Of a DNA stretch of 64,000 nt, positions 3,081-54,829 are shown in pieces. The stretch lies in assembly GCA_000002445.1 (NCBI GenBank), contig AL929603.2, positions 96,001 to 160,000 on the forward strand, read 5' to 3'. A program made the position numbers and the translations under genes. The first letter of the stretch is position 1; each line of letters starts with the position of its first letter. The notes beneath the pieces are model-generated. The model made no database searches. It was not told the DNA's origin and saw only the letters and a list, made by a program, of their open reading frames with translations. The DNA comes from Trypanosoma brucei (lineage: Eukaryota).

Positions 3081-6000
3081 TAACTCTCCTAATATTATTA
3101 ACTTAACTTCCTTTCCTTTTCTTTTTTCTCTGAAATTATAAATAACTGAAGTAAAGTAACATATGAGGAAAATAATAGCGGGTGAACAGTGTAACATAAT
3201 ATCAAAAGTGATCAAGCATGCTAATGTTTATTCACTATCATTTGTATAATATGATATCAAAATGTATTTGGTATTGAGAAGAGCAATTTCAAAATATAGC
3301 AGCTGTAAATAAATATTTCCCTTGCTTCATTATCATGTGCTAAATATAATGAACTTCATACACCATTTCTTTTTTAAACCATATATAATATGGAAACGAA
3401 AAATATTACTGCCTCATACACCTGCATCAACACTTCGTATATATAATCAACATTTACAAAAAGTCAAATTCTATTGATTAAAATCAAGTAAAACAATAAA
3501 CAATAAAAATATATGGATATTAATGAAACGAAGAAAAAGATTATCGGAACAACACATAGATACATACACACATGAATACGCACTACACAATTGCTTCTTT
3601 GTATATCCTCCCCATTTTTACAATTCATAATATTCACTTGCATTGAATAAACTCATTGAAAATATAAATCACCTATCCCCTCCCCCGTGTATTCACTTAC
3701 TTCCAAAGGAGAATATTAAATAATGTCTGTAGGACAGGTAAAAAAAAACTGATAGTCTTTTTGCATCAGATAACCAGTGAGTATTTCTGTTTACTTTCAT
3801 AATAAATAAAAACATCATTTTGCCTTCAGTTAAAATAAAATTTAATTACTTGCCTCCTCACTGTTCACAACTGTCAACAACTAATTCAGCCCCACACATT
3901 CATATGAATCTGATGTGCCATCATTGTTTGATGAATTCACACACCTTTTATGATAGCGATGATACAACACATTGTAAAAAATTGGAATAAAATTAATACA
4001 ATTAATTGAGGAACCCATGAAAGACTATCATAACATTTTTAAAATTTACCTCCTTTCATTTACACAAATTAAATATGTAATGAGACAATTCCCTTTCAGT
4101 ACCTGTCCACACTTATTGTATCATCATTGTAAGTTTCCTATTGCTCACATACACGAAGCTATTGGAGTAACAAAAAATAAAACAACACATCTAAACAACT
4201 TGAAACTATATATAATAAATAAATAAAGGTAATAGAGAGAATGAGCGTGAACTGACAGATAATAAAATGAAACACGTCTCGCACTTTCCTTATAAATATT
4301 CAATAGTTGGTATGTTACAAATAAAAACAATTACACATTATAGAAAGGAAGGGATATAATTACATTATACACCTGTATGTGGATATGTAACAGTGAGTCA
4401 TAGTAGAAATAAATTGCCTAAACACAATAGTTATGGAAGATAAAATAATTCAAAATATCAATAATATTATTCTATCAACATTCCCTTCCTTCTCCATTAA
4501 GTTTTCAATGGTTTCAAATAATAATTCACATAATCCCATACATGTGTTACGATGGGTATTGCATGCAGTACCATCTAAAGGAAGTGCAACTCATATAACA
4601 TTTTCAAAAAAAGGTATTGAATGGTTGTTTGCTACCATCAATTACATTTCCAATGCCTAATTACACTTTTATATGCATGAAGGAAGTTACTGATGATAAC
4701 TTTGACATGCTCGAGAATTCATAACACAAAGCAGCAGCTGCATGCAATAAAAAATAAAAATATAAATAACATCCGAATTCATTTACCGACAGATGAGTGC
4801 AATTCATTCACCCAAACTTCATAGCTGTAAACATAAACTCGCTGCTTCCAATAGGAAATAATCCCGCATAAATATTGAGTATCTGAAAATGATAGCAACG
4901 GGTTTCCATTTTTGAAATATATGCATAAAATACATGAGGTATATGAAGCCATATTGGTAAAGTGTCACTACGCATGTTGCAATTTACTATCAGAAGTGTC
5001 TGCCTTATTTTATTTCTTGTGTTACTGTAACTCATGAGTATCATTCATTATTCTTTACAATACAACTGTAAGTCATTTTGCATTTTTACATATTTTCTTA
5101 TTCTCTCATACTGGAAGTATTCCACATATAAGATTCCTCAATATCGTTCACAAAATAAAAATAATTTCATTTCCTTCTGCATTCAGTTTCTCGTGTAGCA
5201 GTGTGTACTAATCATCCATAAAGTCTTTAATTTGCCAAATACATCATTACGAAACTATTTTCCACAAACAAATAAACAAACAAATCATTGGGACAATATC
5301 TTTGAGGAATTTCCTTCACTATATTTGCAGTTCAGTAGTAATTAAAATACACTTTTCTGTATAATTCAACACATGGTGGAATTGCAAAGAAATGTGATGG
5401 TACTTATAATCAATAAGTTCCCAATTTTCCTCATACGGTCTCTTTTCATGCCTTTACATCCTTATATAATTCACAGAGAATTACTGCAATTTCTTTCATA
5501 TGCTTTCAGGATTCCATAAGTCACAATACAAATAATATATATATATATTTGCTTCTACATAATTTGGACATAATATTGCTTAACATATAAATTATCACAA
5601 ACCTATGATATTACACTCCTCCTAAGAATAATAGAATCAAATTATTTCTATTTTGCATCATTACATGAAGCTTTGGAAAAGGAAAAAAAAGAATCAAACA
5701 AAAGGTAATGTAAAGAACACAGTTTTTTAATACAGATTATAACTTGTTTGTGAATTTCAGATGCAAACACAATATGTTCAAACAGGGAAACAGTAAAGGA
5801 TGTTACTGGTGATGTAAGCACAAATTAACCAAAAATAGAAACATAAATAAAATTGAAACTTATAAAAACACAAATATATATGATACAAATATTTACCATA
5901 TATTATAATTCGCCACCCTCACACTTGAATTACAAAGAGTGCATAACACGCATATGTGGTAAAGCTAATACAACTCGAATATACGTATGCGCCATCTCCT

Positions 6001-7002
6001 TAACATAATCATTCTAATATTTAGTATGTATGTCTGTGTGTGTGTAGAAATGATGAAATGTAATCGACAGTCCCTTGACTCGGAATGCGGTATTAACGTG
6101 TCTCAGATTTTAAGCATTCTTGTTCTACAAGGGAAGTCATTCGCCTTTTTTTTCCTTTTTGCGCAAACAAAAAATAAAAAGAAGAATACAGGGGTTGTAG
6201 CGGATAACTAGCTTTTTGAATCGTAGGAATATATTATGAAGCATCTACTAAGGCACAATCGTCGTTATTTCACTTTCAACACTTCTTCTGACTCTATCTA
6301 CTTTTATCCATGTTTATAAATGATACTTTTTTTTGTGAAAGTTATAACAAGAAACTAACTCGTATTTTTACTCACCGTCTTCCTTATTTCTATATTTCGC
6401 AATTGTACCATGGCAAAATATCATTCTTGTTTCCTATTTCATTGAGCAGTTATGCTTGCAGAAGAAAACAGGATGAAAATAATCAAGACCTCACCAACAG
6501 GGTCCAGACATCCTTCAAAAAAGAACGAACAAAGAAGTTAACAACGCAACCCTTCCCACAAATGAGCGTCTGTCACTGTGCAAGAAAAAACAATGGCTCT
6601 TCAACTGCACACAACACGAGAAACGATATCAGCGGCTTCAATCCCACAGTTAAAGTCACTTGACGAAACACTCCGCATATGAGACCTTTGCAAAGCAATG
6701 TATTTGCTATTAAAAAAGAAAACGCATTCCTTCACGTGCCGTTTCAACAAACTGCTAGCCAAGAACTAAGAGTATCAACACACACAGGTGATATCTACGC
6801 GTCGAATATTTGCTGCCCAGCTGACTCCAAACTCACAAAGAGGAAACAACACGTAACCACTTACAGCCCAGCTGCTAGTGTCCTTTAAGTACATACAAAT
6901 ACACAACAGCAATCATTGTCACACCACTAACTTTAGGTATCATTTAATGCGTATTTAACAAACATGATGCCCGACTCCAAATGTGAAAGGCACTTGTCAC
7001 GC

Positions 7003-7026
7003 ACCCGCCCCGCCCCCCTCCCCACC
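7003..7026. promoter_or_regulatory. C-rich / GC-box-like island (CACCCGCCCCGCCCCCCTCCCCACC) in otherwise AT-rich DNA, a possible strand-specific G-rich Pol II start-region element (speculative)
   Basis: The island is seen directly in the sequence. It is mirrored as a G-rich tract at 52209..52233. It lies between the leftward RHS at 2052..3080 and the rightward gene set. Confidence 0.2.
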
Positions 7027-10000
7027 AATTCCACAGAATGGTGGAAACAGAGCGGCAAAGGAGGAGCGGCGCGGCACTGTTAAAATAGAGCAGCTGCGCA
7101 TCAGTTGCATTGATTTTGTGGAATGCAGAGAAACCACCAGTTGAGTTTAGAGTAAAGGATGCCTCCCATAGAGCCGTGACGGCAGAATATGATGTAGACG
7201 TCGCGATTCTTTTTTTTTGTTTTGCTGCAACCTCCCGAAATGCGTTGAAACGCCAAGCGCTACCGTCACCCCCAGAGCAAAAACGTTGGGGAGAAAAAGC
7301 GGAACAATGCGTGGGTTGTGGCGCTGAAACCACAATTACCAACTGGCAAGGTGGATGGACCGCGACAGGTGAGCGGGCAAGGGGAGGTATCGCGATATGT
7401 TTGTGAAATGTGGGGAAATGTAAGAAAAGAGACCACTAAATATGATAACGATGTCAGAGCAACGAATATGAATGGCGTACAATTCCGTTCAGAAACACTG
7501 TCTGGAAACTCTGTCCGTAAAACAACAACCGGCAGCACCGACGAATTCGTAACAGAAGGTTGCGGGATGCCAGCCAAAAAAAAAACCATCAATAGGCCAC
7601 AACCACACCGAATCAGAAAGTCCATGTAAAAGTAACCAAATACACGCAGCTCAAACGCTCGAATGTTGGATACGCGGCAGGTGACACGACGGAAGGAATA
7701 TTATCCGGCGCTTGGAAGCATGTCACCACCGCAACGAATCCTCAGAAACTGGACAACTTCAAGTGTGGAGTGGCGGCTTGCATATGAACGCAGTTAATGT
7801 CAGAAAAGGGGTGAAAGGCACAGCGGGAGGAATGGCGGAGTAAAAAAGGCAGGGAGGCGGTGCCAAGACTCCCGAGCAGCCATCCGCTAAAACCTACGGC
7901 ATATGACATGTGTGTTATGGCCATCGCAGCGCAGGAGGAACTGTTGCAACAGATCAGACATGACTGTTATGGGCCCGTCACTGCCTTCAGAGGCTTTTCC
8001 AAACGAAAGGAAAGAGCGCAATGAAACAGAGTGATGCTGACGTGTGCAGAAGTCTGAAGGCATTATATCAGCGAGGTCTGTGGTGACTAAAAGCCTGAGT
8101 TGGATGCATGGTTGGAAGGGTGGTGGATCCTGCGAATAGTTGAAAGTAGGGTGCCTGTACTTTATTTCTCATATACTCGCGTGCTCCGTATACAAAATAT
8201 AAATGCGAAATGGAGCTAACAAACGCGCCAGCAAAGTGACTCTGTTCCTTTACAATGTCCAGACAATTCTTACTAAGACTCTTAAAGCTACTGGACCGAA
8301 GGAACCTCACGACCATGTGCAGCCGGCAAACGTACGAAAATGAGGAGCTGGCCGGCATCCCACCCTCTACTTGATAGCTGCTCTCAACTGGAATATCGGG
8401 GATTATGGATGGTGCAGAAAGCTCACCATTTCGTAGATTCTCCTGAATAGCAATGGAGTCTGAAGGTTAACCCAAAGAATTAAACTGTTGAACAGACCTG
8501 GTGACCCACATAGTCTTTTTTTGTGTGAAGAGTGTCGGACTGCCTTACTGCATCCCTTCGCGTGCATGCAAACTGAGCACAACGCAATGTCTCCTTTATT
8601 ATTTGAAGCATGAAAGCTCATGGATCATAGCCATGTGACAGAACGCCTTGATTACGTTAGACTGATAGGACCGCTGTGTATTTTTATCGTTTATGTTGGG
8701 ATGTGCATTTGATAGTAGCATCTGTTAATGTACAATTATTTTGATGGATTTGGCACATTACAGTGATTTCTTTTGAGAGTTTCTCTTCCCCCTCACTCTG
8801 AGTAGATGTGGGGTAACTGGTTACCTTTCTGACGTTAACATGGTTTGCCAGCTCTGTTTGGAAATGTTACGGTTTCCTCATAGACAGTTTCGAAAATTGT
8901 CCGTAAAGCTGTTTTGAATCCATGTTGCGGTTGTCACGAATCAGAAAAATTATAACGAAGACGGGTCTGCAACAAGTGATTGTGAGTAAGCGGCAATACT
9001 GCGTATCAAGTAATGTCACATCATGATGATTACAGTGCTGCTTCACAACTTCAGCATAGGGGAATGGCGGAATCGTTTCAAATGCGGAACAAATAATGAG
9101 AGTTCAATTCTTCCTTATTAAATTCCCGTGGCCGCATAAACTGTATGCAGGTGAAACATTTATCAAGGAAACTGTATTTACGAGACTTAATTCAAGGAGA
9201 GATTAGGAATGCAGATACTTCATGCTTTCACTGAACAGCCGTACATCAGACCTGTCAACTCCATTAAGTGACTGAGGAGTTAACCCATTGTAAGGTGTAT
9301 GAACATGGAGACATGGTTTGAGCAACCAACAACCAGTATTCAGTATAGTTGGCTTATGTGAAACCAAAACATCTGCATTCGTGTATGTTCAACCTGACAG
9401 CTTCGCTTACCCTTTTGTTAAGCTATAAGACACTCTTCCAGGTGTATGCAACAAAATACAGTTATGCGCGTGATCTTGCGAGTGAGGATGATAGTCTACA
9501 GGAAACATGCGAAACAGGAAAAATATATATTGAGCTGATCTGAATCCATTTGATGCAGAATGTAAGAGCACAACCCAGCTGATATTTTCGTATTAACCAA
9601 CACACTAAAGAATGATTTAAGAAGCAGGAAAAAGTTGATCCAAACAGCACTTAGCCTGGAGTTGTTTCCAATGCTCCTAGATAATAATGTGTATGATGCG
9701 TATGGGGGTTCATTACTTTTTGAGGGAGTATGAAAAAACGATGATGGGCAGAAACTGTTCGGAAGATGACAATCTTTACCATTCTTATTATTAGGTTGAC
9801 ATCCATTTTGTGATGGTTTAATGGTTTAGTATGTATGAGTGCTTTATGCTCGCTTTATTTGAACACAAACTCATGCATGCGCGAAAATTGTGAAGCTGCA
9901 TACCCACAGATATCAATTAAGGGCATCAAACTTTTGGTGTAAAGCAGTCATTTTCATATGAAGTTAGCATTCCGAAACAGTTACTTGGGAAAGGAAATTG

Positions 10001-12071
10001 AAGGTCCACCACCCTTACCAACATGCATTTTATCTGTATTTGTTGTCAAAACGGAGGTCACATATAGTCGCTGCGTAATATATTCCCTTACTTATACTCA
10101 TTAATATCCACTGACGCCTCTCTTTTCTCTCTTCGTGTGCGGGAGGCACTGCCGTCATACAGAGAGAATCGCAACATTGGATAAGAGAATGGATCTCGAG
10201 TGTGTTAGAAGGCAGTCAGAGACGATAGCAGTTGTGACGGTTGTGGTGTTCCGGGTGAATTTGGATTTGATTAATGATGAACCGCTTCGTGTAGCGGTAA
10301 GAGACCCTGATGAAACTGCATGTAAAGAAACTGGAGGAAGGGTTCACAATGGTCATAAACACGTCTTATGGATGTGATAATGTATGAAGTGAAAGTGTGG
10401 AAACAAGGTTGAGAGAAATCATGTGTGAGACTGTATTGGCCAATTTTTACAAAATGGGGATGAATTCTCTCCGTGTATGAATGCTGCGTTGGAGAGTGCA
10501 AATGATGCGTTACATGTACAAGCTGGAGAGGATGGCGACTGACGTCTGAAATTGGAATGGATGTAAAAGGCATAAAGCATTGTACCGATGCGAAAGCAAA
10601 GGGCGCATGCATGTCAACGATAGGAAACTAGTTTAGACTCTTTTTGTTCGGATATGCTTTGGCGGAAACAGTGTGCATGCAGGACCCCCGAGCATCCGAC
10701 AAAGGGATATAGAAGCGTTAACGATAGTCTCCAACTCATGGAAATCCGGCGGACATCAACTCCTCTCAATTATAAGTTACTTCGAGCTTATCAATTTCTT
10801 CCTTATGAGGTCCCATTTCCTCCACACACTTTTGCATCACAACAATGGAGAGAAGGAGAAAATGTTGAAGCGCATTATGCACTGTATCAAACTTGTTTGT
10901 GTATGTATTTGGTCTCTTCTGATATGAGTCTAACCGTTACCAACATGTTACCGGCTCTAGGAATCCATGAGCATGATGTACATAAAGTATCACGAACTTT
11001 GTGCGCGGCCCGATGTTCCACTTAGTGAGCGTCATCAAACTCAATGAGCAGAACCACATGAAAGGAGGAAATTGTGTATTTGTATGCATACATGTGTGTC
11101 AATATGTTGGTTTGTAACACTGTGGTGAGAGTAAATGGAAGTATCTTTTAATATGGAGAACACCACACATAAACACACCTCAGTGTATCGCCAAGAAATA
11201 ATGGCGGAAACGGGTCAGACAATGTTGCAAAGATATCAGTCTCAAATATATACATATGACAGTAGCCATTCTCTGGTCACACAACAAGGAAGAGCAAGGT
11301 GTAGCGTTGATTGGATGTAACGGCAGGATGAATCATTTCCTTTAGAGGACAAATGAGCAGATGCGCGTGTGCAGTCCGAACCGGCTAACTGTGAATTGCA
11401 TTTCATTGAGAAATATTTTGTTAATTCAGCAGGAAGAACGCCTTCTTTTTTCACTCTCATTTTACGCAGACATGACGGTCGATAGAGGTTTGTACCAGCT
11501 GATGCATTTACAACCGTGCACAGTGATAAATGTTAACTGATTATTCCTGTCATGTGACTCTCGAGACGTTACCAGGTGACCATGGAATTATCTTAAAGAT
11601 GTTTGGATAGAAGGGCGTCTGATAGGTGCCGGTCTTCTAATACGGCGAAAAGCTTGTAATGCATGCGTATGTTTGGTAAGATGCGAGGAAGCCATTGATT
11701 GTACTGTTGTAGTTAGCTGTTGCGCGCCGGATTGACTGGGTGTGGTTGTAGCACATCTCAGTAATGAAGTGCAGAAACCTCTCATCCATCGCAGTGATCG
11801 GCAAATATGTCTTAATTAAGTTGAATGGCAGGTGGTGTCTATGCATATGCTGGGTTGCTCGACTGCCAGAAACATGGATTAAAGCAGCAAAAGGTGTTGT
11901 CGTTTGTTTTTATCCATGCATTTGTTCAAACTATCTGTGCATCAATGAGAACTATCATTGTCTTTCAGTACAACCAACCTTTCTATACCATCACTAACAA
12001 CTCTCCTCTTCCATCCATCATTGCTAGACAAGATAACTTTCTCGATTAATTTCATTCATGATCGCACGCGT

Positions 12072-14958
12072 ATGCCGGCTGACGAAGCACAGCAAGCTCC
12101 ACCACCTCTCCCAATTACCTTTACGACACCAACACTTTTCCTGTTGCTGTTAGTGTTACTTCAACTTTATCAAATATGTGTTCTTGTTAACGCAGATGAC
12201 AGTAGGAAAGTTACGGTGAAGGCAATATCTCTGTTATACAGTCGAAAATGGGACCTACAAGTTATCAATGCCGTGAATGCCGGTTTCAATGCCTCCCTGG
12301 TTGCTCGGAACTGGACGGTGGCACCCGGGGTGAATGTTGAAGTTGCCCGCTCCCCCTCATACGGCATCGATTCGGTCCAGTTTCTGAATGATTACTTGAA
12401 GCCACTAAATGGCGATGACGCGAACAAGCTGTGCAATACATTAGAAGGGAACCAACTTGTTGGATTCGGTCCCATAACTGAGTGTCGATGGGGCATGAGG
12501 GATGTCTGCCGCATTTTTACTTCCTGCTCCTTGAGGCCACTGGCGAACTTATTACCCCAGTACGTTATGCAGTGAGTCACTTACATGTGCTAAAGCAGGG
12601 TTTCATGTATCTTGATGGGCTCCCGGGAGGTAGTGAGGCATATAATCAGGCAGTGGATTTCATATAGCGCATGGGGTACAGTTTCTGTTGTGTTTTCACG
12701 GGGGAAGACAAAGCGGGTGGCCAAGGTGGATCACCTGAGGAATTCGACGCCGTATGGGATGAGTTTGCTGGGGGAAATCCACAGGCTGTGATTATGTTTG
12801 CCGCCATGAAGCCTGATGCCAAAAAAATATCTCGTGAGGTTGGTGTCTGATCCGCGTACGGAAGATACGTTCGTGCTAACTCCGATCTTCTTGCAGAAAT
12901 CAATTGTGAGCATCTGGAAGGAGACATTGGAGGAAGCGAATGTTCCGTTTGTTCCCCATCGTGTGATTCAGACGGGGTCAAATCCTCTCACTAAGGAAGA
13001 TTATATCGACGCGGTAAAACGCTTTCAGACTGAAATGAGGAACTACTTGACTGAATACAAGGAGTGGAGTGGCTTCAATGATGCAGATCACTTTCTAAAG
13101 AGTGACGCGCACGGGGAGCTGACGATTAATGGCTGGATTACTGGAGAGGTGTTGGCGCGGGCACTGCGTAGCCATGGCTGGATGAAAAATCGCACAGCCT
13201 TCATTGAGTCGCCGTTACGTGGTTGATGGCATAGTGATCGGTGATTTTGGAGGTGAGTGCGATAGCTTTACCACTGCAAATGATGCCACTTGCCGCTGCA
13301 ACCGTGGCAGGAAGGACGTCTACATGAGGGAGATTGCTGAGAATTACCGCCTGCAGCCGCTTGTTGGCAGGCATATTATGACAACTTCCCTACAGTGTTA
13401 TATCGATCCCTCATTCCTATAGATACCACTCACCGGCCTCACCGTTGATATGGAAGATCACGAGGAGCTTCTGAGATGTTCCACACAGTTTGAAACTGGT
13501 GTGTCCACCACGACCTCATCTGGGAAAGCTGGCGAGATGAACAGTTTCTTCCTTCAGAAGGTTGTTACGGATATGCAGAAGGTTTCCGACGAGCTCAACA
13601 CATTACGACGGGAAAGGATAGTCGCTGCTGTGTTCGGCATCGTGACAAAAGCGGTGCTCGGTCTGACATTCATTGACCCTATGACACCAATCCCCCATCT
13701 GAACAGTTTCAGCAGGAATGTGATCCACTTGTCCCCAACAATGGAGCAGCAGCTATGCATGTTAGCGAGCTCCCTCTCCAGCATTCGTGCTGACTTCCAC
13801 CAATCGCGTTGTAAGGGGCGGTGAGGCGTCCGCTTTCATTGATGTGCTAAGAAAGACACTGCTCACATTTGGCTTGAACCTCAGCTCTACCGTTGTGTTG
13901 ACTGCAGGGGACTCTGTTGGAGAGTATCTTTCGAAAAGTGGTAGCACTTTTATCATTGGACTTGCTGTTGATGGCATTGTGGTAACTGAAGAGCATCTAC
14001 GTACTCGCAACAAGGTGCGCGTATTTGTCCAGTTCTCTGGCATTGCGCTGCTGTAAAATGAGTTTGTGCAAGCCTTCAACAGTAGCGACGGCGCCAAGCA
14101 CCTTTTGTTCGCAACAAGTTTGCTTTGCTAGCCAGACATCAACACGACATCGTAGACTGTGCAACGGTTCCACGAGGCGGTACGTGAGGTGGAAAAGTGG
14201 ACGCCGCTGTCGGTGCTGGGTTTCGCCACGGGTAGACTAATACAAGAGAATCTGCAAAACATGGAAAGGGTAACGTCCGGCCTGCTGCTCGATTTTTTCT
14301 TCAACCAAACAGTAATCACCATTGATGACATGCATTATATGGGCCGTACAAACATTATGATTGCATAATCAACGTTGTTGTTGCCGCTGATGACTGCGTG
14401 ACAAACTTCGGTGCTACGGATATAAGTCTGTGTGTGTGTGTGTGATCAATGGCACGTGCGCTACGGTCAGATGCACCAACACTACAGAATGCGATGTCGC
14501 CGTCGTTGATGTGCGCTGTCCCCAACGGTAATGCCCTCAACCCCTCACAACTTGCTGGTGTGGTTGATGACTCTTTATTCGTTGTGGCTCTCGCAATATG
14601 TCTAAGCTTACTTGCGTCATTCCCTCTCCGTGGCACCCGTGATAACGACAGCGCGCCGAAGGAGCCAACGGACCCTGTGACACTAATATTTACTGACATT
14701 GAGAGCAGGACTGTGTTGTGGGCTGCACACCCTGACCTGACGCCTGATGCCGTTGCAACACATCACCGTCTGATTCGTTCACTGATTGGGAGGTATGACT
14801 GCTACGAGGTGAAAACTGTTGGTGATTTGTTCACAATAGCGAGCAAGAGTCCCTTCGCTGCCGTCCACCTCGCACAGGAACTACAGCTGTGTTTCTTGCA
14901 TCATTCCTTCCGAAGGGGCTGCACAATTTCTGACAGCGCCGAATGGACAAATGCATAA
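12072..14958 (+). pseudogene. GRESAG4: Receptor-type adenylate cyclase (GRESAG4/ESAG4 family) pseudogene with multiple frameshifts and stops, and C-terminally truncated
   Basis: A signal-peptide-like start reads MPADEAQQAPPPLPITFTTPTLFLLLLVLLQ. The extracellular domain reads KVTVKAISLLYSRKWDLQVINAVNAGFNASLVARNWT...SYGIDSVQFLND. A TM helix reads SLFVVALAICLSLLASF. The class III cyclase catalytic core reads VTLIFTDIESRTVLWAAHPD...HHRLIRSLIGRYDCYEVKTVGDLFTIASKSPFAAVHLAQELQL. The reading frame is broken across the ORFs 11958..12575, 12816..13226, 13450..13824, 13787..14056 and 14449..14958. Confidence 0.8.
14428..14444. repeat. (TG)n microsatellite
   Basis: gtgtgtgtgtgtgtgtg seen in the sequence. 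Confidence 0.9.
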
Positions 14959-16380
14959 TATTACTGAGCGCTGCTTACGCACGCAGCTTATATAATGTCA
15001 CATGCGTTGTGATTTGTAGAGGGGAGTGGGCCACCAGAAATTAGGTCATTTTAATGTCAATAAGTTTTTACCGCTTGTTGGAGCCGTCATTCCCCGCACT
15101 TAACCTTTTCGAACCGAGGAGTTGGTAAAAGACGGCCAATCAACGGTATCGTCGACACCATGGCCATCAGTACGGGATTTTACATACGGTAACGAAGCGT
15201 GGGCATATGTTTTTCTTTAAACGTCATTTTTATTTTATTTTTCTGTACATTGTTGCTGTCACTTCTATGAAGTATAGCCAGAATGTCAGAGTAGTGCATT
15301 TGTGTGCAAAACAAAGAAAATAATACTCCCTTTGTTTTTCTCTCCCTCTTGGGTTGTATGAAAAGAGGGGGCTCCTGTTTGTAGGATGACAAGAGCTGTT
15401 TTGTTTCTTTCCTCAAAAAAAATTACATGCTCCATAGTTGCTCCAATATTCCCATCCCTTCATTGGAAAATGACCCGACGGCTCCGTCCATGTGAGTGAA
15501 GCGGTGTCCCTGATATTTGCCCTGATGCTTTTTCTTTTTTCCACCGTGGAACCTGCACTGCACTGCACTTGCGTTCCCTCATCCCCTCTTACAGTTATCC
15601 GTTTCACTTCCCCTGTTGAGGAATGCGTATTTCCAACCGTGCGAGATATCAAACAGTAAATCTGTCGGACAAACAAAAGGCTGAGAAATTCTTCACATAA
15701 ACTTATGAGCTTCCACCACTGAGGCACGCACGCTCACCAACACCAACAAAGTCAAGCAAAAGTCGCTGCATATTAATACTCAATGGCGCCATAATGTTCC
15801 CTTTTCCTTTTTCCTTCCGTTGGGGTTACACAACACTTGTGGGAACCCGCTTCACTTCGTCCTTTTCCAATTATGAAGGTAACTGTGTTTTGTTTGCCAC
15901 ACTTCCGCTTGTTATTTCTCCAACTGGTTTCACTTTCAGAAGTCGCGTGTACACCACTTGTGGAGGAAATATTACATTAAGCAAAACCAACAACGAAAAA
16001 AATGGCAATACATTCTAAAACATTCCCTCAACATTGCAGAACTCATGAAAGGAACCATGGTTACTGCCACCAGGCTAAGCAAAGACCAAAAGGCTTTTGA
16101 AATGTGTTTTCGAATCGAATGTACCACTGGTATTTCTTTAACATGCAAACACAACACAAATCACTGCATACACAAACACGAGTGCCAAGCTTCTTATAGA
16201 GATATTTCAATACCTGAAAAAGGGACCGGGACGCAAAGTTTGGGAATGGAATTTCCCCACCCGTAACGGTGATTATCTAAGACGCTCAATCAACACATTT
16301 CCGCCTGTCCACAGTTAATCGGAAACCGTAGTGCCCATATGTCTCCCTAATTACTGTTGTCCCTTCAGTTTTCACAGTAG

Positions 16381-31723: not shown

Positions 31724-31800
31724 TTCTCCTTCACAAACTAAAGCATGATGCCAGAGTATTGCCTGTTACCGCATATTTTATAGGAGGTCATGCATGCATA
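31724..31800 (+). pseudogene. RHS: TSD (3' copy) followed by RHS continuation after the ingi
   Basis: TTCTCCTTCACA is followed by LLHKLKHDARVLPVTAYFIGG. Intact RHS reads LYKLLHYDAEELPVVAYFRG at this point. Confidence 0.75.
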
Positions 31801-35139: not shown

Positions 35140-35944
35140 AACCTTCTCCGAAGTGAGAACAAAAATCTCCAAACCATTGGGTCTCTCCGGCACTCGTGCA
35201 TCAACATTCGCAGGTTCAGGAGTTATATCCACCTCCGCTTCGGTCCAAATGCGCTGCGGTTTTCCATTAAACACTTTCATTCCAAGTGGCTCTTCATCAT
35301 AACCCGGCATCACATAACTCCATTTCGCATTGTATATAGAATCATACACTCCTTTAAGTTCGACAGCACCACAGGCTGGTTGGGCAGCTCGTTTCCTTGC
35401 TTCTTTGGCGACCTCCAGTGCTCCATCCAACCTTCCCCTCGCCACGGGACCAACAAATTCCCTTATTTCCCCTCTTCCCTTCTCCTCCCACTGACTGAGG
35501 TAGTAAATTTCCCTTCCCATTAAGGTAGAGAGGAGATTTCCTTCTACTTCAGGCAACCGCTCACAAATCTTTTTGTACTGTCTGAACTTGTGGAGATTCT
35601 GTATGTCATGTAGAATTCTTGCGTTCGTAATATATTCTCCCGGATTTTCAACAAACATGGGAATCCTCACATTTTCCGTTTCTGCCACTCCATAAATCAT
35701 GCAGTGTCATTTTACGCAGAACCTCATACCGTTGCAGCGGCACATCCCTCGCCTTACTATTCATCGTCCAGTTGGGCCCCTCTTCAGTTCTCTGCCGTAT
35801 TTGTGGAGGCTGAGCAGCAGCAGCAGCAGCAGGAGGCGGTACATTTTCATCCCGTGGTCTCCTCATGGCTGCTTCAATATTACCTGCCACTTGTTGATTT
35901 GCATCGTTTCCACGTGGAGCTGCAGGATTGTTGGCTCTCGGCAT
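35140..35944 (-). pseudogene. RHS: Mirror copy of the truncated RHS 5' portion (tail-to-tail with 34249..35074)
   Basis: The ORFs 35092..35700 (-) and 35648..35944 (-) are near-identical to 34514..35119 and 34249..34566. The differences are one 15-bp indel, the (CCT/GCT)n length and a small indel near ...ANVDA(RVPERPNGLEIF). Confidence 0.85.
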
Positions 35945-38458: not shown

Positions 38459-38470
38459 TGTGAAGGAGAA
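38459..38470 (-). repeat. TSD TGTGAAGGAGAA (reverse complement of TTCTCCTTCACA) flanking the RIME; second copy at 38972..38983
   Basis: Seen in the sequence. It is identical to the left-arm TSD. Confidence 0.85.
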
Positions 38471-38971
38471 TTTTTTTTGAATTTTCTTCGTGCCTTCGTG
38501 GGAGTTTCCCCCCACTGGCGCGGCCATCAGCCATCACCGTAGAGCCCTGAAATGCTATCGGTCTGGCGACTGTGGCAGAGTCTCCCTTTTTCATTCATCC
38601 TAACACACTCTCTATAATTTTTGTTGTATTTCCGCATATGAACGGAATACAGCAGATGGGGCGAGAAGCCTCCCACCCTGGACTCTCCCAAAGATGCCAA
38701 TTGGCAATCCTTTTTTTTTGGAGTTCCACATCACCGGACAGCAGCATCTTAGTGCGGATGATACTGCTGATGGCACGCTGGCACGTGCCCAGGGACCGAC
38801 AAATGAAAAACGGTGTCCCAGCAAGACGCTGCTGATCCCTGTACTGTATGATGCCGTAGCCGGAGCACAGCAGTGTTCCCCATGAAAGGAACGCTGCTGG
38901 CTCTTGGCTTCCCCCGATGATACGGGGTACTGGACCCTGGCACCACGTTGAGGTGGCCGGCATCGCCAGGG
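38471..38971 (-). mobile_element. RIME (ribosomal mobile element, 501 bp: ingi 5' half joined to ingi 3' half) at the position that is paralogous to the left-arm ingi
   Basis: The 5' half is CCCTGGCGATGCCGG...GATGTGGAA. It joins directly to the 3' half ...GGATTGCCAATTGGCATCTTTGGGAGAGTCCAGGGTGGGAGGCTTCTCGCC...A8. The ORF 38612..39025 reads across the junction as ...CCCPVMWN|SKKKGLPIGIFGRVQGGRLLAPSAVFRSYAEIQQKL. Confidence 0.9.
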
Positions 38972-39459: not shown

Positions 39460-42400
39460 CTGGTGTCCTGAAGCAAAATGTTGAGTATTGTTCTTGATTA
39501 AAATATTTGCTTTACTTTTCTAACTAATTCGGCTTCTTAGTGTTTCCTTTTAAAGGATACAAAAGCTTTATCGCAAAGGGATTCCTATACTAAAGGACGC
39601 ACATGGTTACTCAGATAGAACAGTTATAAATCTCAAATAAAGTTCAGTAACCTTTCCTTACACATTTTTTTATCCAATGAAAATATTTCCACAGTGCTCT
39701 ACTGCAGCATTGTGGCCATTAAAAAAATAGTTTTGGCGCTGCCTCAGGTATTCACTGGCATTTCCCCTCTTTTCAACGCATGTTTACAAGCAGAGGCATG
39801 CCTCATTGCTGTCACACCTTAGCGTTATTGAATCTATTTTCATACCTCCAAGGACCATACAGCATGAGATTCTATTTTCAAATACATTAATTGATCCACG
39901 AGATTTGGTATTTTATTCATTTCATCTGACTGTTGGTTTTCCTCATTCTCTGAGTTCGCAAACACCACTGAGCTAATTCCGCGCAAATGTACACATGTAA
40001 CTTCAAGGTAATATATGTTTATCACTGTTGTATTCTTTCGTATTTCTTTTGTTGGCTGCTGGTGCCCAGTAAGTTCCTATCATAAAATATGTATCATCTT
40101 ACAAGACACAGCAATAATGGTCATGATAAAGTTTCTGAATTCCCTGTATTTAATGTTGGACGCTGGTGTGAGGAATGGATTCAAAAACAAACAAACAAAT
40201 AAACAAACTGAAGCCTCCTGTTCGTAAATGAAGAGTTTGTGTTCACATCGTTGGAGAGTGTCGGCACCAGGAGATATACTTTTCTCGCTTTGCAGTGTGT
40301 GTTTCACTACAGTTTCCGTTCGTTCCGCCATATGGGAAAATAAATTGTTTTGGATATTTGAGTCTGCGCCGCCTTCCCCACTCAAAGCACCTTGCATAAT
40401 GAGTATTATTGTAGTAAATTTTGAGTTCTCATGAGGATTTCACACTTCACACGCGCAAAAAAAAATTGTTACAATGACTCGATTACTGTTGCACACATGG
40501 AAATGGTGGCTGCGATAGAAGCTTCCCTTAATTTGTGTCATTTTCGTGAGAGTTGAGTTTTAAGCAACATTGTGCCTCCTAAACCTCGATACGCATTTTA
40601 AAAAAATGAGATTAAAAAAAAGACTCACTATTTGATACAAAATGTAAGGGAACTTGGCATTTAATAATAATTATTATTATTGAACACACATTCATATGTT
40701 AATTTTTTTCCATCACCGTTAGGAACGTAATCATCACAATTTAAAGAACCACCAATACGCAAATATTTCCATACGCCACTTGACTGTCTTCGAAGCGCTG
40801 CCCAATTGGTTTTGAATGTAAGTGCAATACAAAAGAACAAAAACATTTGAGAGAAAGAATTCAGTAATAAAAAATATGGTTAAAGTTCCCCATCACCTTT
40901 CTGAAACCTTTTGAACTTTGCGCATCTGCACGCTCAAGGCAAATCAAAGTTTCTCTAACCATTGATGTTTACATTATTTCCAATCGACCATGTTTCTTGA
41001 AACAGATGTTGGAAAGAAAATACAAATAGTGATGGATGAAAACCTGAATATTAATACTGACAATAATAATGGTAATAATAATGGTAATAAAAAATAAATA
41101 GATTAATTAATTAAATTACATTCCTTCAGTGCATTGCACTTATGCAGGGATTATGACTCGTACAAACCTGTCTCATAGTTATTTATGAATTCATGACAAA
41201 CAACTCGGTAATGATGCGCCATGAAATGTTTAATCAACGAATCTTACATTCCACGTATAATACGATGCAAACCGAACAAACATCAGTCACAAAAGCGATT
41301 TGTTTAAAAATGATATATATATATATATATTTTTTTTTTTTGCGAGCGTGTAGAAGCAAATAAATATAACACTGTGCGCAGAGGATGAAGGGTACAAACA
41401 AATGAAACAACGATAAAAAAATTATTTACAAGATTAAAAGAAAGTGCCGTTTGAATAAAGAGAAATTAAACAAGAGGTGGTGACAAATCGTATGCTTTTA
41501 ATATACTTACTGCAGATATTTAGTTTGTAACGATTAGTATTATATAAACAGCAACACATGTGATGAAACTCAGGAATATATCAACTAAACCTCAGATTGT
41601 TCGACAGACAAGCAAAAAAAAAAAAGAAAAGAAGAATAATATGAAAAAAAAAACATCTGGTGTTAATGTCGCACAACATATTTCAACAGTTGATTCACAC
41701 TACAAATTTCCTATAAACATACGATTTAAATCACCACCTGCACATTCCCTTCCGCGTATCGTTGTTTTGACTTCAAACAGCTTACAAGTATAATTTGCTG
41801 ATGCCATCTTTACATAATAAAATGAAACTATTAAAGTTTATCACAGTCCGCAAATTACGGGTTTTAGGTTGCAGTCGTCGGTTGTTCTTCCCTCTGCATA
41901 ATGGTCTCTCATTAACATACAAATATCTCTCAACAAAAATATTCACATTAGAGAGATTAGGTGATGAATGATTTGAGTCAACTCCTTCCACTTGTAACTT
42001 CATCACGGCATGGTTGCGGCTCACAACAGAAGGAAGGGTGTTTTTACTCTTAGGTTGAATGATACCTGCAGTTCCAACATAATTCGATATATATATATAT
42101 ATATATATTCTTTATTTCTACTTTCTGCACTTCTCCACTTTCGTGTTGTCCATACAACAAATATCTCTTTACCCGATGGTGAATGAGATGTGGTGTGCTG
42201 TTTAGAAACTGAACTACATTTTTAGCTGAGAGTGGAAAAGCTGAAAAAGTGTTTTGGTTTGAAGAGTGAGTCAGTTGAAGCATTCAGCATTTGATTAACT
42301 CATAAAACATATAATTTATATTTAACCTTCCAATACCATCGCTCGAACAGAGCAGTTTCTTGTCATAAAGACATTAACCACATGCTAAAATTTTCCACGC

Positions 42401-52208: not shown

Positions 52209-52233
52209 GGTGGGGATGGGGGCGGGGCGGGTG
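52209..52233. promoter_or_regulatory. Mirror copy of the GC-box-like island (GGTGGGGATGGGGGCGGGGCGGGTG)
   Basis: This is the right-arm counterpart of 7003..7026. Its G-rich strand is oriented toward the rightward RHS array. Confidence 0.2.
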
Positions 52234-54829
52234 CGTGACAAGTGACTTTCACAATTGGAGTCGGGCATCACGTTTGTTAAATGTGCTTTTAACGGCACCT
52301 AAAGTTAGTGGGGTGACAATGATTGCTGTTGTGTATTTGTATGTACTTAAATGACACTAGCGGCTGGGCTGTAAGTGGTTACGTGTGGTTTCCTCTTTGT
52401 GAGTTTGGAGTCAGCTGGGCAGCAAATATTCGACGCGTAGATATCACCTGTGTGTGTTGATACTCTTAGTTCTAGGCTAGCAGTTTGTTGAAACGGCACG
52501 TGAAGGAATATATTTTTTTCTTTTTCTTTAAATAGCAAATACATTGCTTTGCAAAGGTCTCATGTGCGGAGTGTTTCGTCAAGTGACTTTAACTGTGGGA
52601 TTGAAGCCGCTGATATCGTTTCTAGTGTTGCATGCAGTCGAAGAGCCATTGTTTTTTCTTGCACATTGACAGACGCTCATTTGTAAGAAGGGTTGTGTGG
52701 TTAACTTCTTTGTTCGTTCTTTTTTGAAGGATGTCTGGACCCTGTTGGTGAGGTCTTGATTATTTTCATCCTGTTTTCTTCTGCAAGCATAACTGCTCAA
52801 TGAAATAAGAAAGTTGTTTTGCCGCGGCACCATGGCGAAAATTTAGCACTGACGAGGACAGTGACAGGAAATACGGATTGGTTTCTTGTAATAACTTTCA
52901 CAAAAAGTATCATTTATAAACATGGATAAAAATAGATAGAATCAGAAGAAGTCAAAAAATAAAAAATAAAAAAACACTGAGTAGACTACGGTACAAGCTT
53001 CATAATATATTCCTACGATTCAAAAAGCTAGTTATCCGCTACAACCCATGTATTCTTCTTTTTATTTTTTGTTTGCGCAAAAAGGAAAAAAAAAGGCGAA
53101 TGACATCCTTTGTAGTGCAACAGTGCTTAACATCTGAGACATGTTAATACCGCATTCCGAGTCAAGGGACTGCCGATTACATTTCATCATCACTACACAC
53201 ACACACACAGACATACTAAATATTAGAATGATTATGTTAAGGAGATGGCGCATACGTATATTCGAGTTGTATTAGCTTTACCACATATGCGTGTTATGCA
53301 CCCTTTGTAATTCAAGTGTGAGGGTGGCGAATTATAATATGTGGTAAATATTTGTATCATATATATTTGTGTTTTTATAAGTTTCAATTTTATTTATGTT
53401 TCTATTTTTGGTTAATTTGTGCTTACATCACCAGTAACATCCTTTACTGTTTCCCTGTTTGAACATTTTGTGTTTGCATCTGAAATTCACAAACAAGTTA
53501 TAATCTGTATTAAAAAACTGTGTTCTTTACATTACCTTTTGTTTGATTCTTTTTTTTCCTTTTCCAAAGCTTCATGTAATGATGCAAAATAGAAATAATT
53601 TGATTCTATTATTCTTAGGAGGAGTGTAATATCATAGGTTTGTGATAATTTATATGTTAAGCAATATTCTGTCCAAATTATGTAGGAGGATATATATATA
53701 TATTATTTGTATTGTGACATATGGAATCCTGAAAGCATATGAAAGAAATTGCAGTAATTCTCTGTGAATTATATAAGTGTGGAAAGGCATGAAAGGAGAC
53801 CATGTGAGGAAAATTGGGAACTTATGGATTATAAGTACCATCACATTTCTGTGCAATTCCACCATGTGTTGAATTATACAAAAAGTTTCTTTTAATCACT
53901 GCTGAACTGCAAATATAGTGAAGGAAATATCTCAAAGATATTGTCCCAATGATTTGTTTGTTTGTTTATTTGTGGAAAATAGTTTCGTAATGATGTATTT
54001 GGCAAATTAAAAACTTTATGGATGATTAGTGTACACTGCTACACAAGAAACTGAATGCAGAAGGAAATGAAGTTATTTTTATTTTGTGAACGATATTGAG
54101 GAATCTTATATGTGGAATACTTCCAGCATGAGAGAATAAGAAAATATGTAAAAATGCAAAATGACTTACAGTTGTATTGTAAAGAATAATGAATGATACT
54201 CATGAGTTACAGTAACACAAGAAATAAAATAAGGAAGACACTTCTTATATTAAATTGCAACATGCGTAGTAACACTTTACCAATATGGCTTCATATACCT
54301 CATGTAGTTTATGCATATATTTCAAAAATGGAAACCCGTTGCTATCATTTTCAGATACTCAATATTTATGCGGGATTATTTCCTATTGGAAGCAGCGAGT
54401 TTATTTTTGCAGCTATGAAGTTTGGGTGAATGGATTGCACTCATCTGTCAGTAAATGAATTCGGATGTTATTTTTATTTTTTATTGCATGCAGCTGTCGC
54501 TTTGTGTTATGAATTCTCGAGCATGTCAAAGTTATCATCAGTAACTTCATTCATGCATATAAAAGTGTAATCAGGCATTGGAAATGTAATTGATGGTAGC
54601 AAACAACCATTCAATACCTATTTTTGAAAATGTTATATGAGTTACACTTCCTTTAAATTGTACTGCATGCAATGCCCATCATAACATATGTATGAGATTA
54701 TGTGAATTATTTTCTCTTGCTTAATACGTGTCTGGTTTGAATTGTGAAGATAATGTTTTATATTTATTTTTACTTTTGGTATTTTTTTTAATTTTGTAAG
54801 GTAAGTAAGGCACGTACTATTTTGTATGC

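What the first reader, a model, noticed from the sequence alone, without database searches (positions are those of the whole stretch)
4521..54711. Giant imperfect palindrome (~30.6 kb + ~19.6 kb arms) carrying a pair of intact LRRP genes
Coordinate sums of mirrored ORFs are constant within blocks. The sum is 59237 in the outer block, 65532 around the LRRP and about 70200 near the centre. This places almost everything between 4521 and 54711 into one inverted duplication centred at 35075..35139. The steps between block sums equal two arm-specific indels. An inverted duplication of this size is unusual. It pairs two full-length 1448-aa LRRP genes on opposite strands and creates a convergent strand-switch at its centre. 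The arms differ by 0-5% nt and by two large indels, so a single-molecule foldback assembly artefact cannot explain the structure.
Basis: seen in the sequence. Interest (0 to 1): 0.8.

Follow-up and report, generated by a model that had tools for sequence, protein, structure and literature searches.

The report
Inverted LRRP/RHS repeat pair, trypanosome chromosome 1
The 50-kb imperfect palindrome is real and lies in the retroelement-rich RHS/LRRP region of Trypanosoma brucei chromosome 1, but it is two opposite-facing copies of a repeat unit found elsewhere in the genome plus a nearly identical inner core, so it is an instructive example of a known kind of rearrangement rather than a new one.

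Summary
Self-BLAST gives one broken anti-diagonal from 4520 to 54711, with a 67-nt spacer at 35074-35140 and two left-arm-only segments (9879-16152 and 26766-31470). The window is T. b. brucei TREU927 chromosome 1, and both LRRPs are annotated proteins there.

The single-event reading is only partly supported.
- Each arm is a copy of a ~20-25 kb unit: upstream block, DUF1181 gene, LRRP, and an RHS pseudogene carrying ingi.
- A third copy of this unit lies upstream in direct orientation in T. b. equiperdum, and related units sit on other chromosomes.
- Outside about 23 kb, the left and right arms are no closer to each other than to that third unit (88-98% identity, mosaic).
- Only the inner part is 96-100% identical.

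The 4.7-kb "indel" is a deletion inside the right-arm ingi. The 6.3-kb one is an adenylate-cyclase pseudogene segment flanked by a 17-nt direct repeat.

An independent T. equiperdum assembly has the same inverted ingi junction. It lacks the 5.1 kb around the centre and most of the right arm.

Both LRRPs are kept open by selection. A foldback read artefact is excluded. A published survey of TREU927 inverted repeats does not list this locus. Interest is modest.

The parts
1..2051 (-). 5' part of a second ingi retroelement, cut by the window start. It is inserted at the hot spot of the flanking RHS pseudogene. It is 98.5-99% identical, in inverted orientation, to the first 2 kb of the left-arm ingi.
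   Evidence: element start CCCTGGCGATGCC at 2051 on the minus strand
2052..2850 (-). RHS pseudogene, N-terminal part up to the P-loop hot spot (...GTPGIGKSFGVGSFL|ingi). It points away from the palindrome.
4520..9878 (.). Left outer block. It has no long ORF and mirrors 49364-54711 at 92.9%.
9879..16152 (+). Left-arm-only 6.3-kb segment carrying a fragmented receptor-type adenylate cyclase (GRESAG4-like) pseudogene. It is flanked by a ~17-nt imperfect direct repeat, AACACAAA(C/T)..TGCAT. It is present in the T. equiperdum orthologue and absent from the right arm and from the third unit.
   Evidence: PF25495, PF00211
16381..16743 (+). DUF1181 gene, 120 aa, XP_846397.1
16972..21318 (+). Left LRRP gene, 1448 aa, XP_846398.1
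26388..26517 (+). End of an RHS pseudogene at its retroelement hot spot (...LAIGSLLLH|)
26518..31480 (+). Left-arm ingi, ~5.0 kb, with endonuclease and reverse transcriptase domains and an A-rich tail. Its ORF is broken into three pieces in TREU927. No target-site duplication is seen.
31471..35073 (+). Inner left arm, 99-100% identical to 35141-38720 except for a mismatch patch at about 35017-35036. It contains a 206-aa ORF (31790-32410) and an RHS_N pseudogene (34249-35073) reading into the centre.
35074..35140 (.). Asymmetric 67-nt spacer at the centre. No copy of it exists elsewhere in the window or in the five fetched loci.
35141..38720 (-). Inner right arm, with a mirrored RHS_N pseudogene and a 206-aa ORF at 37784-38404. 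RHS homology runs 5 nt further here (GGTTGGC) than in the left arm.
38711..38971 (-). Stub of the right-arm ingi: its first 248 nt, then CTCC, then A9. It sits at the mirrored RHS hot spot. It is the remnant of a 4.7-kb internal deletion and is not a canonical RIME.
   Evidence: a full ingi occupies this side in T. equiperdum
40080..40397 (-). 105-aa ORF annotated 'hypothetical protein, unlikely', XP_846401.1
44214..48560 (-). Right LRRP gene, 1448 aa, 100% identical to XP_846402.1
48726..49151 (-). DUF1181 gene, 141 aa, XP_846403.1
49364..54711 (.). Right outer block, mirror of 4520-9878
55277..56741 (+). Frameshifted RHS pseudogene pointing away from the palindrome
60384..62411 (+). RHS5a gene, XP_846406.1, with RHS_N and P-loop domains

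Best explanation
The window is T. b. brucei TREU927 chromosome 1, in its RHS/LRRP/ingi-rich region.

Two neighbouring copies of a ~20-25 kb repeat unit lie in opposite orientation. The unit runs: non-coding upstream block, DUF1181 gene, LRRP gene, 105-aa ORF, RHS pseudogene interrupted at its hot spot by ingi, then 3.6 kb ending in a truncated RHS_N pseudogene. The two copies meet head-on across a 67-nt spacer.

Shown:
- The inverted arrangement is genuine and predates the split from T. b. equiperdum.
- The ingi was already in place when the inner part was duplicated. Both arms have the same RHS hot-spot junction and the same 3' flank.
- The right-arm ingi later lost 4.7 kb in TREU927.
- The 6.3-kb cyclase-pseudogene segment is flanked by 17-nt direct repeats.
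- Both LRRP copies are kept open by selection.

Inferred:
- The inversion junction arose from a break inside an RHS N-terminal coding region. Repair was by fold-back (hairpin) priming or by template switching. That would account for a short unique spacer and for arms ending within a few bases of each other in the same RHS codon region.
- Afterwards the arms exchanged sequence with each other near the centre, keeping that part 99-100% identical.
- The outer, multi-copy part exchanged patches with other LRRP units elsewhere in the genome, giving mosaic 88-98% identity.

Consequences, also inferred: there are two mirror-image transcription units that diverge from the flanking outward-facing RHS genes and converge at the centre. 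Read-through of the centre would yield hairpin RNA covering RHS and ingi sequence, which could feed the trypanosome RNAi pathway.
For: Structure:
- Anti-diagonal blocks and coordinate sums. Centre and spacer. The spacer is unique.

Identity of the locus:
- The right LRRP is 100% identical to XP_846402.1, on a 1,064,672-bp contig. Both LRRPs, both DUF1181 genes, the 105-aa ORF and RHS5a are TREU927 chromosome-1 proteins with consecutive accession numbers.
- Pfam confirms RHS_N (cut at profile position 69 of 127 at the centre), the ingi endonuclease and reverse transcriptase domains, cyclase fragments and DUF1181.

Independent assembly:
- T. equiperdum L001 and L004 are colinear with window 8049-33379 at 97-98%. 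The sequence then switches to window 38471-38720 followed by an inverted full ingi.

Same ingi junction in both arms:
-.

Identity gradient and mosaic:
- arm-to-arm profile; comparison with the third unit; LRRP proteins.

Arm-to-arm exchange:
- In segment 31471-31720, 7 variable sites group by strain and 0 by arm.
- In 31471-33379, left and right arms differ at 4 sites, while the T. equiperdum orthologue differs from them at 21 (left) and 18 (right) sites.

Selection on the LRRPs:
- dN/dS is 0.58.
- None of the 22 indel events in the block falls inside the ORF (P about 9e-6). None of 5000 simulations with 242 random substitutions avoided a premature stop.

Repeats flanking the 6.3-kb segment:
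-.
Against: - The formation mechanism is not demonstrated. No microhomology at the junction can be scored without the ancestral sequence, and the source of the 67-nt spacer was not found.
- A single duplication predicts even divergence along the arms, which is not seen. The account needs later conversion events that are inferred, not observed.
- The 'ingi 3' end plus first 135 nt of flank' junction also occurs at a third place in T. equiperdum (L003 10408-11873). Orthology of the T. equiperdum inverted junction therefore rests on position and on the continuity a'-b' in TREU927.
- The T. equiperdum orthologue is 99.6-99.9% identical to the left arm in some windows. Its 1% difference in 31471-33379 could reflect conversion in T. 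equiperdum rather than homogenisation in TREU927.
- The exact centre of the TREU927 sequence was not verified with reads. If the sequenced clones were propagated in E. coli, a near-perfect palindrome centre could have been altered during cloning. This last point is my own reasoning.
Confidence: 0.65

Rival explanations
1. Two-step origin. The two LRRP units were already old paralogues (about 5-7% apart) brought into opposite orientation by ectopic recombination among RHS genes. Only the inner ~7 kb (plus ingi) per arm is a more recent palindromic duplication or one long conversion tract. On this view there was never a single 50-kb palindrome-forming event.
For: - The three units are nearly equidistant in the outer and LRRP blocks.
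- The left LRRP is closer to chromosome-2 LRRPs and to the third unit than to the right LRRP.
- Identity rises over the 23.1-24.6 kb windows.
- Every boundary lies in or beside an RHS fragment or an ingi.
- T. equiperdum and TREU927 differ in which RHS type flanks the left arm, from about window 2470 leftwards.
Against: - Colinearity of the two arms holds across about 20 kb of mostly non-coding sequence with only two large indels.
- Divergence is patchy rather than uniformly old. For example, 98.6% at 5500-6000 sits next to 88.2% at 6000-6500. That pattern fits later mosaic conversion as well as old age.
Confidence: 0.25
2. Assembly or cloning artefact. The inverted join at 35.1 kb would be a mis-join of clones or of the two chromosome-1 homologues. 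Alternatively the centre could have been altered during cloning, so the native locus would not be palindromic or would have a different centre.
For: - No read-level data could be examined.
- Exact look-ups of the two ORFs that span the centre found nothing in other assemblies.
- T. equiperdum lacks exactly the 5.1 kb around the centre.
Against: - T. equiperdum, a different strain and a separate assembly with no Ns in this stretch, has an inverted ingi plus 250-bp flank 1.66 kb from the left-arm copy.
- The mirrored order a'-b'-c' in TREU927 is continuous.
- The arms differ by two large indels and hundreds of substitutions, which is too many for a read foldback.
Confidence: 0.07

Closest known systems
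The seven long inverted repeats of T. brucei TREU927 that give rise to siRNAs (Tschudi et al. 2012, PMC3447711)
   Same: Both are large inverted repeats inside megabase chromosomes of the same strain. The arms are essentially identical in the inner part here. The published repeats are sources of Dicer-dependent small RNAs, and that paper counts ingi/RHS as the largest siRNA source.
   Different: The published set lies on chromosomes 2, 7, 8, 10 and 11, spans 422-10,011 bp and is >=99% identical. None is on chromosome 1. The two chromosome-1 convergent units they list are at 636-642 and 721-736 kb; I did not map the window onto chromosome-1 coordinates. This locus has 30.6 and 19.6-kb arms of 88-100% identity, built from RHS, LRRP and ingi sequence. 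Small-RNA output from it was not tested.
Gene-bearing palindromes of primate sex chromosomes with arm-to-arm gene conversion (own knowledge)
   Same: Both have multi-kilobase arms carrying paired genes on opposite strands and a short spacer. Within a lineage, the arms are more alike than the orthologous arms are between lineages.
   Different: There the whole arm is about 99.9% identical. Here only the part inward of about 23 kb (roughly 7 kb per arm, excluding the ingi) is 96-100% identical, and the rest is mosaic. The organism and gene content are unrelated.
Inverted-duplication amplicons of Leishmania, and fold-back inversions from breakage-fusion-bridge cycles (own knowledge; references listed in PMC11739655)
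   Same: Both involve head-to-head duplication with a short spacer. Both form at pre-existing repeats or breaks in a kinetoplastid genome.
   Different: The Leishmania amplicons are extrachromosomal or terminal and arise under selection. This structure is interstitial, old and remodelled. No terminal deletion or uniform arm age is seen.
RHS clusters, the 'repetitive region' of T. brucei chromosome I (Bringaud et al. 2002; Hall et al. 2003; own knowledge, papers not held)
   Same: It is the same region and the same gene families: RHS with ingi/RIME at the hot spot, and LRRP. RHS5a (60384-62411) carries a second GenBank protein accession (AAL14356.1) named RHS5a, which I take from memory to come from that work.
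   Different: I could not check whether those papers draw or mention the inverted arrangement. It was not found in any paper I could search.
Palindromic 177-bp repeat cores of T. brucei minichromosomes (Wickstead et al. 2004, cited in PMC1868937)
   Same: It is a palindromic chromosome architecture in the same species.
   Different: Those are inverted arrays of a satellite repeat forming the core of small chromosomes. This is a gene-bearing segmental duplication in a megabase chromosome, and no satellite is present.

Membership tests
Long inverted repeat / imperfect palindrome (structural class) | Two arms that are reverse complements, colinear over their length, far beyond chance | tested here: met
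   (E = 0 blocks with constant coordinate sums)
Long inverted repeat / imperfect palindrome (structural class) | Short spacer between the arms | tested here: met
   67 nt, 35074-35140. The centre folds as a hairpin with z = -27.
T. brucei siRNA-producing long inverted repeats (Tschudi 2012) | Arms essentially identical (>=99%) | tested here: inconclusive
   Met for 31471-34970 (99-100%). Not met for the whole arms (88-98%).
T. brucei siRNA-producing long inverted repeats (Tschudi 2012) | Listed in the published survey | tested here: not met
   Table 3 has no chromosome-1 entry. The chromosome-1 convergent units are at 636-642 and 721-736 kb.
T. brucei siRNA-producing long inverted repeats (Tschudi 2012) | Argonaute-bound 22-25 nt RNAs map to the arms or spacer | not testable with these tools
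   No small-RNA reads are available here.
Fold-back inverted duplication (break, hairpin, replication) | Short unique spacer, with arms ending at nearly the same point of the duplicated sequence | tested here: met
   Both arms end in the same RHS_N codon region. The right arm runs 5 nt further.
Fold-back inverted duplication (break, hairpin, replication) | Short inverted microhomology at the junction in the ancestral sequence | tested here: inconclusive
   No unduplicated ancestral copy is available. The spacer matches nothing.
Fold-back inverted duplication (break, hairpin, replication) | Arms of one age (even divergence) | tested here: not met
   Identity is 88-100% with a gradient and mosaic. 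Later conversion must be invoked.
Palindrome with arm-to-arm gene conversion (concerted evolution) | Arms within a lineage are more alike than orthologous arms between lineages | tested here: met
   7 sites group by strain and 0 by arm in the 250-bp segment. Left and right differ at 4 sites against 18-21 versus T. equiperdum over 1.9 kb. Caveats are in the text.
ingi non-LTR retrotransposon | Endonuclease and reverse-transcriptase ORF, conserved 5' start, A-rich tail | tested here: met
   PF14529, PF03372 and PF00078. The start CCCTGGCGATGCC is at 26518 and the tail ends at 31480. The T. equiperdum orthologue is annotated with an RNase H domain.
ingi non-LTR retrotransposon | Target-site duplication flanking the element | tested here: not met
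   The 5' flank ...CTCCTTCACA and the 3' flank GGATTGCCAATTG do not match.
RHS (retrotransposon hot spot) genes | RHS_N and P-loop domains, with a retroelement inserted just after the P-loop motif | tested here: met
   PF20445 and PF07999. Three ingi insertions follow ...GS(F/L)LL(H/Q).
LRRP (leucine-rich repeat protein, ESAG8-related) | Identity to annotated LRRP proteins, with LRR domains | tested here: met
   XP_846398.1 and XP_846402.1 are exact matches. LRR Pfam families are listed.

The most novel reading that the evidence does not exclude
The inner palindrome (~12 kb per arm originally, including ingi) may be actively homogenised by arm-to-arm gene conversion. Because two transcription units run into its centre, it could be a hairpin-RNA source that feeds the RNAi pathway against ingi and RHS transcripts. 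Its centre could also be a fragile site whose asymmetric deletions and ingi-ingi recombination generate the known size polymorphism of chromosome 1. The T. equiperdum allele would be one such outcome.
Probability: 0.2. Interest if true: 0.55.

Novelty: new member of a known kind. Interest (0 to 1): 0.35.

Why it matters
- This would be by far the longest inverted repeat catalogued in a T. brucei megabase chromosome. The published survey stops at 10 kb.
- It gives a worked example of how RHS pseudogenes and ingi elements shape chromosome 1. The evidence covers a break inside RHS, an internal ingi deletion, probable ingi-ingi deletion in another strain, and concerted evolution near a palindrome centre.
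- It also shows that two LRRP paralogues are both under selection, although the function of LRRP is unknown.
- It does not reveal a new kind of element or mechanism.

Tried and rejected
- **Exact-protein look-ups that found nothing.** Both LRRPs, P0001, the two centre-spanning ORFs, the 206-aa ORF and the right-arm 105-aa ORF had no record. TREU927 itself seems not to be indexed, so I walked along T. equiperdum using annotated proteins instead.
- **Homologue searches.** A search with the centre ORF gave only distant RHS fragments. A search with the 206-aa ORF gave only short Logan contigs.
- **P0009 as the T. equiperdum right-arm LRRP.** Rejected. It lies upstream in direct orientation and is about equally distant from both arms.
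- **Centre at the RHS retroelement hot spot.** Rejected. The hot spot lies after the P-loop motif, roughly 70-75 codons downstream of the truncation point in intact RHS copies.
- **Spacer as a continuation of RHS coding sequence or a copy of local DNA.** Beyond GGTTGGC it does not follow the RHS paralogues. It has no match elsewhere.
- **Right-arm element as a canonical RIME.** Rejected. It has only the 5' 248 nt plus an A-run.
- **Donor for the mismatch patch at 35017-35036.** None found.
- **Structured RNAs and satellites.** There are no tRNAs and no Rfam families. The only tandem repeat is one weak 19-bp array outside the palindrome.
- **Literature.** Hall 2003, El-Sayed 2003 and Bringaud 2002 are not held. 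Eight full-text searches found no description of this palindrome.

Full report

Yes. A self-BLAST of the window gives four inverted blocks that together form one broken anti-diagonal:

| Left arm | Right arm | Identity | Coordinate sum |
|---|---|---|---|
| 4520-9878 | 54711-49364 | 92.9% | ~59237 |
| 16153-25636 | 49380-39894 | 95.4% | ~65532 |
| 25637-26765 | 39854-38724 | 98.2% | ~65490 |
| 31471-38720 (self) | – | 98.35% counting gaps | 70191 |

- The jumps between sums correspond to two left-arm-only segments, 9879-16152 (6.3 kb) and 26766-31470 (4.7 kb).
- Base-level alignment puts the arm ends at 35073 and 35141, with a 67-nt asymmetric spacer between them.
- The stated 0-5% divergence is too narrow. 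In 500-nt windows identity runs from 88% to 100%.

**2. Where the window comes from**

- The right-arm LRRP is 100% identical to XP_846402.1 of T. b. brucei TREU927, on a 1,064,672-bp contig. That is the size I recall for TREU927 chromosome 1, and the orthologous T. equiperdum locus tags begin DPX39_01.
- The left LRRP is XP_846398.1.
- The DUF1181 genes are XP_846397.1 and XP_846403.1. The 105-aa ORF is XP_846401.1. The RHS gene at 60384-62411 is RHS5a, XP_846406.1.
- The locus has therefore long been in the annotated reference genome.

**3. Anatomy**

Pfam and sequence reading show that each arm is one unit with this order:
1. A ~5.3-kb block without long ORFs.
2. In the left arm only, a 6.3-kb segment with fragments of a receptor-type adenylate cyclase pseudogene (PF25495, PF00211).
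3. A DUF1181 gene.
4. The 1448-aa LRRP gene.
5. About 4 kb that includes the 105-aa ORF.
6. An RHS pseudogene cut at its hot spot (...GSLLLH|) by an ingi.
7. A further 3.6 kb with a 206-aa ORF and an RHS_N pseudogene that reads into the centre.

Further details:
- The RHS_N pseudogene is cut at profile position 69 of 127.
- The left-arm ingi spans 26518-31480.
- At the mirrored hot spot (38971-38711) the right arm has only the first 248 nt of ingi, then CTCC, then A9.
- Both arms are flanked by RHS genes that point away from the palindrome: 2850->2052 on the minus strand and 55277-> on the plus strand.
- The gene order therefore makes two mirror-image units that converge at the centre.
- No tRNA, Rfam family or satellite lies in the structure.

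**4. Evidence from another strain**

TREU927 DNA could not be reached elsewhere. Chromosome 1 of T. b. equiperdum (GCA_003543875.1, CM010672.1) could be walked through annotated proteins.

- **Left arm.** L001 and L004 are the orthologue of the left arm (97-98%). They include the 6.3-kb cyclase segment and an intact ingi.
- **Inverted junction.** After the equivalent of window 33379 the T. equiperdum sequence switches to window 38471-38720, followed by a full-length ingi in inverted orientation. An independent assembly of another strain thus has the inverted 'flank plus ingi' next to the left-arm copy.
  - This rules out a read or assembly foldback as the origin of the arrangement.
  - It also shows that ingi was once present in both arms. 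The 4.7-kb 'indel' is a deletion within the right-arm ingi of TREU927.
- **Missing centre.** T. equiperdum lacks 33380-38470, the 5.1 kb that holds the TREU927 centre. The mirrored order a-b-c | c'-b'-a' is continuous in TREU927. A single asymmetric deletion in T. equiperdum is therefore the simplest reading.
- **Missing right arm.** Beyond the 5' end of the inverted ingi, T. equiperdum does not continue into the mirrored RHS pseudogene. It runs into unrelated DNA with an Rpb2-like polymerase gene. No T. equiperdum orthologues of the right-arm LRRP, DUF1181 or 105-aa genes exist in the protein clusters. Most of the right arm is thus absent there, probably through recombination between two ingi copies (inference).

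**5. One palindrome, or two members of a repeat family?**

- T. equiperdum has a third unit (L002, with LRRP P0009) upstream of the left arm in direct orientation. The strand follows from the 'reversed' flags. This unit lacks the 6.3-kb segment and has no ingi.
- Identities are nearly equal among the three units:

| Pair | LRRP block | Outer block |
|---|---|---|
| L-R | 95.7% | 93.7% |
| L-A | 94.8% | 93.4% |
| R-A | 94.4% | 91.9% |

- At protein level the left LRRP is 92.3% identical to a chromosome-2 LRRP and 91.1% to the right LRRP. In residues 901-1050 it is 97% identical to the chromosome-2 copy and to the third unit, but only 85% to the right LRRP.
- DUF1181 cluster members show related units on at least four other contigs, including Tb927.2.680, Tb927.2.940, Tb927.4.150 and Tb927.7.7550.
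- Only the region inward of about 23.1 kb is specifically similar between the arms: 96-100% overall, and 99-100% for 31470-34970.
- This leaves two readings:
  - A single inverted duplication, followed by arm-to-arm conversion near the centre and patchy exchange of the outer multi-copy part with other units.
  - Two old paralogues in opposite orientation that later acquired a young palindromic core.
- I favour the first but cannot exclude the second. Colinearity holds over ~20 kb of non-coding DNA, and divergence is patchy rather than uniformly old.

**6. Concerted evolution near the centre**

- All four sequences exist for the 250-bp segment next to ingi: the TREU927 left and right arms and the T. 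equiperdum left and right arms. Seven variable sites group by strain and none by arm.
- Over 31471-33379 the TREU927 arms differ at 4 sites. The T. equiperdum orthologue differs from them at 21 (left) and 18 (right) sites.
- If the inversion predates the strain split, as section 4 argues, this is the signature of arm-to-arm gene conversion.
- Caveats:
  - A third copy of 'ingi 3' end plus 135 nt of flank' exists in T. equiperdum (L003).
  - Orthologous identity is 99.6-99.9% in some other windows. Conversion within T. equiperdum could therefore add to the pattern.

**7. Origin of the junction**

- The two arms end within five bases of each other in the same RHS_N codon region. They are separated by 67 nt that match neither the RHS paralogues nor anything else in hand.
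- A 20-nt cluster of 16 mismatches lies 35-55 nt from the left arm end. There the right arm keeps the sequence seen in other RHS copies. No donor was found for the left-arm version.
- A break within RHS, repaired by fold-back priming or template switching, fits these features. This step is inferred and not shown.
- The centre is not at the RHS retroelement hot spot. The hot spot lies after the P-loop motif.

**8. The 6.3-kb segment**

- It is flanked by an imperfect 17-nt direct repeat.
- The right arm and the third unit lack it, with slightly different junctions.
- Either loss by recombination between the repeats or gain in the left-arm lineage is possible.

**9. The LRRP pair**

- The genes differ at 242 of 4344 nt with no indel, and dN/dS is 0.58.
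- All 22 indel events of the surrounding block fall outside the ORF (P about 9e-6).
- None of 5000 simulations with 242 random substitutions avoided a premature stop.
- Both copies have therefore been kept open by selection.
- dS varies from 0.01 to 0.18 along the gene, which again points to a mosaic history.

**10. What is known**

- A systematic survey of TREU927 for large inverted repeats found seven, on chromosomes 2, 7, 8, 10 and 11. They span 422-10,011 bp, are >=99% identical, and all give siRNAs. None is on chromosome 1 (PMC3447711).
- The chromosome-1 convergent units that paper lists are at 636-642 and 721-736 kb.
- That study pooled ingi/RHS reads, which made up 52% of siRNAs.
- I found no paper describing this palindrome.
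- The primary chromosome I and RHS papers are not held. From memory, they describe this region as an RHS/LRRP-rich, size-polymorphic 'repetitive region'.

**11. Verdict**

- The structure is real, old and remodelled, and it is a useful example of RHS- and ingi-driven rearrangement.
- It belongs to known kinds: inverted segmental duplication, and a palindrome with arm-to-arm conversion. It sits in a region already known to be repetitive and recombination-prone.
- Interest is modest, at 0.35.
- The most novel reading still open is an actively homogenised, hairpin-RNA-producing and fragile centre. I give it about 0.2 probability.

Noticed in passing
window 1-2070 vs 26499-28519: A second ingi, cut by the window start, sits in the hot spot of another RHS pseudogene on the minus strand. 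It is 98.5-99% identical to the first 2 kb of the left-arm ingi. The two form an extra pair of inverted repeats about 24 kb apart, a possible substrate for inversion.
   Followed up: partly
window 38711-38971: The right-arm element is not a canonical RIME. It has the first 248 nt of ingi, then CTCC, then A9. It looks like an internal deletion running from ingi nt ~249 to the tail.
   Followed up: yes
L004 18282 / L005 (T. equiperdum CM010672.1 ~91.8-97.1 kb): T. equiperdum lacks window 33380-38470; the junction lies at a T-run. Its inverted ingi is followed by non-RHS DNA leading to a 273-aa gene and an Rpb2-like polymerase gene. The RHS/LRRP region of chromosome 1 is therefore much shorter in that assembly.
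   Followed up: partly
L003 2067-10269 (T. equiperdum CM010672.1 52779-60981, minus strand): To the left of the left arm, T. equiperdum carries the reverse complement of a sequence 92.7% identical to window 55833-64000, the RHS genes to the right of the right arm. The mirror symmetry may once have extended at least 8 kb further out on each side. In TREU927 the left flank differs from about 2470 leftwards.
   Followed up: partly
L002 (T. equiperdum CM010672.1 24298-47603): This is a third LRRP unit in direct orientation upstream. It has no 6.3-kb cyclase segment and no ingi in its RHS.
   Followed up: yes
window 35017-35036: A cluster of 16 mismatches lies within about 20 nt, 35-55 nt from the left arm end, inside an otherwise 99-100% identical inner arm. 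The right arm matches other RHS copies, so the left-arm version is the derived one. No donor was found.
   Followed up: partly
window 26388-31084 vs L004 11383-16353: The left-arm ingi ORF is split into three pieces in TREU927 (428, 675 and 447 aa). The orthologous T. equiperdum element has one intact 1656-aa ORF.
   Followed up: no
window 31790-32410 and 37784-38404: The 206-aa ORF is identical in both arms and has no Pfam match. Its only database relatives are 196-aa calls on short Logan contigs. It is not annotated in TREU927.
   Followed up: partly
window 44214-48560 (right LRRP), residues ~901-1050 and 1201-1350: These patches of the right LRRP are 80-89% identical to every other LRRP compared. 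In residues 901-1050 the left LRRP is 97% identical to a chromosome-2 copy and to the third unit. The right copy therefore carries divergent tracts of unknown origin.
   Followed up: partly
window 54830-55284 vs 59944-60391: An 86% direct repeat lies just upstream of two RHS genes (55277 and 60384). It is probably a shared RHS 5' region.
   Followed up: no
window 59208-59317: A weak tandem array of a 19-bp unit (TTTCCTTATATTTCATATA, 6 copies, 69% matches) lies between two RHS genes.
   Followed up: no
window 4001-6000: This is a very AT-rich stretch (GC 0.30) at the outer end of the left arm. Its mirror at 52-56 kb has GC of about 0.35-0.37. These ORF-free blocks sit where the LRRP units and the flanking RHS genes diverge.
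   Followed up: no
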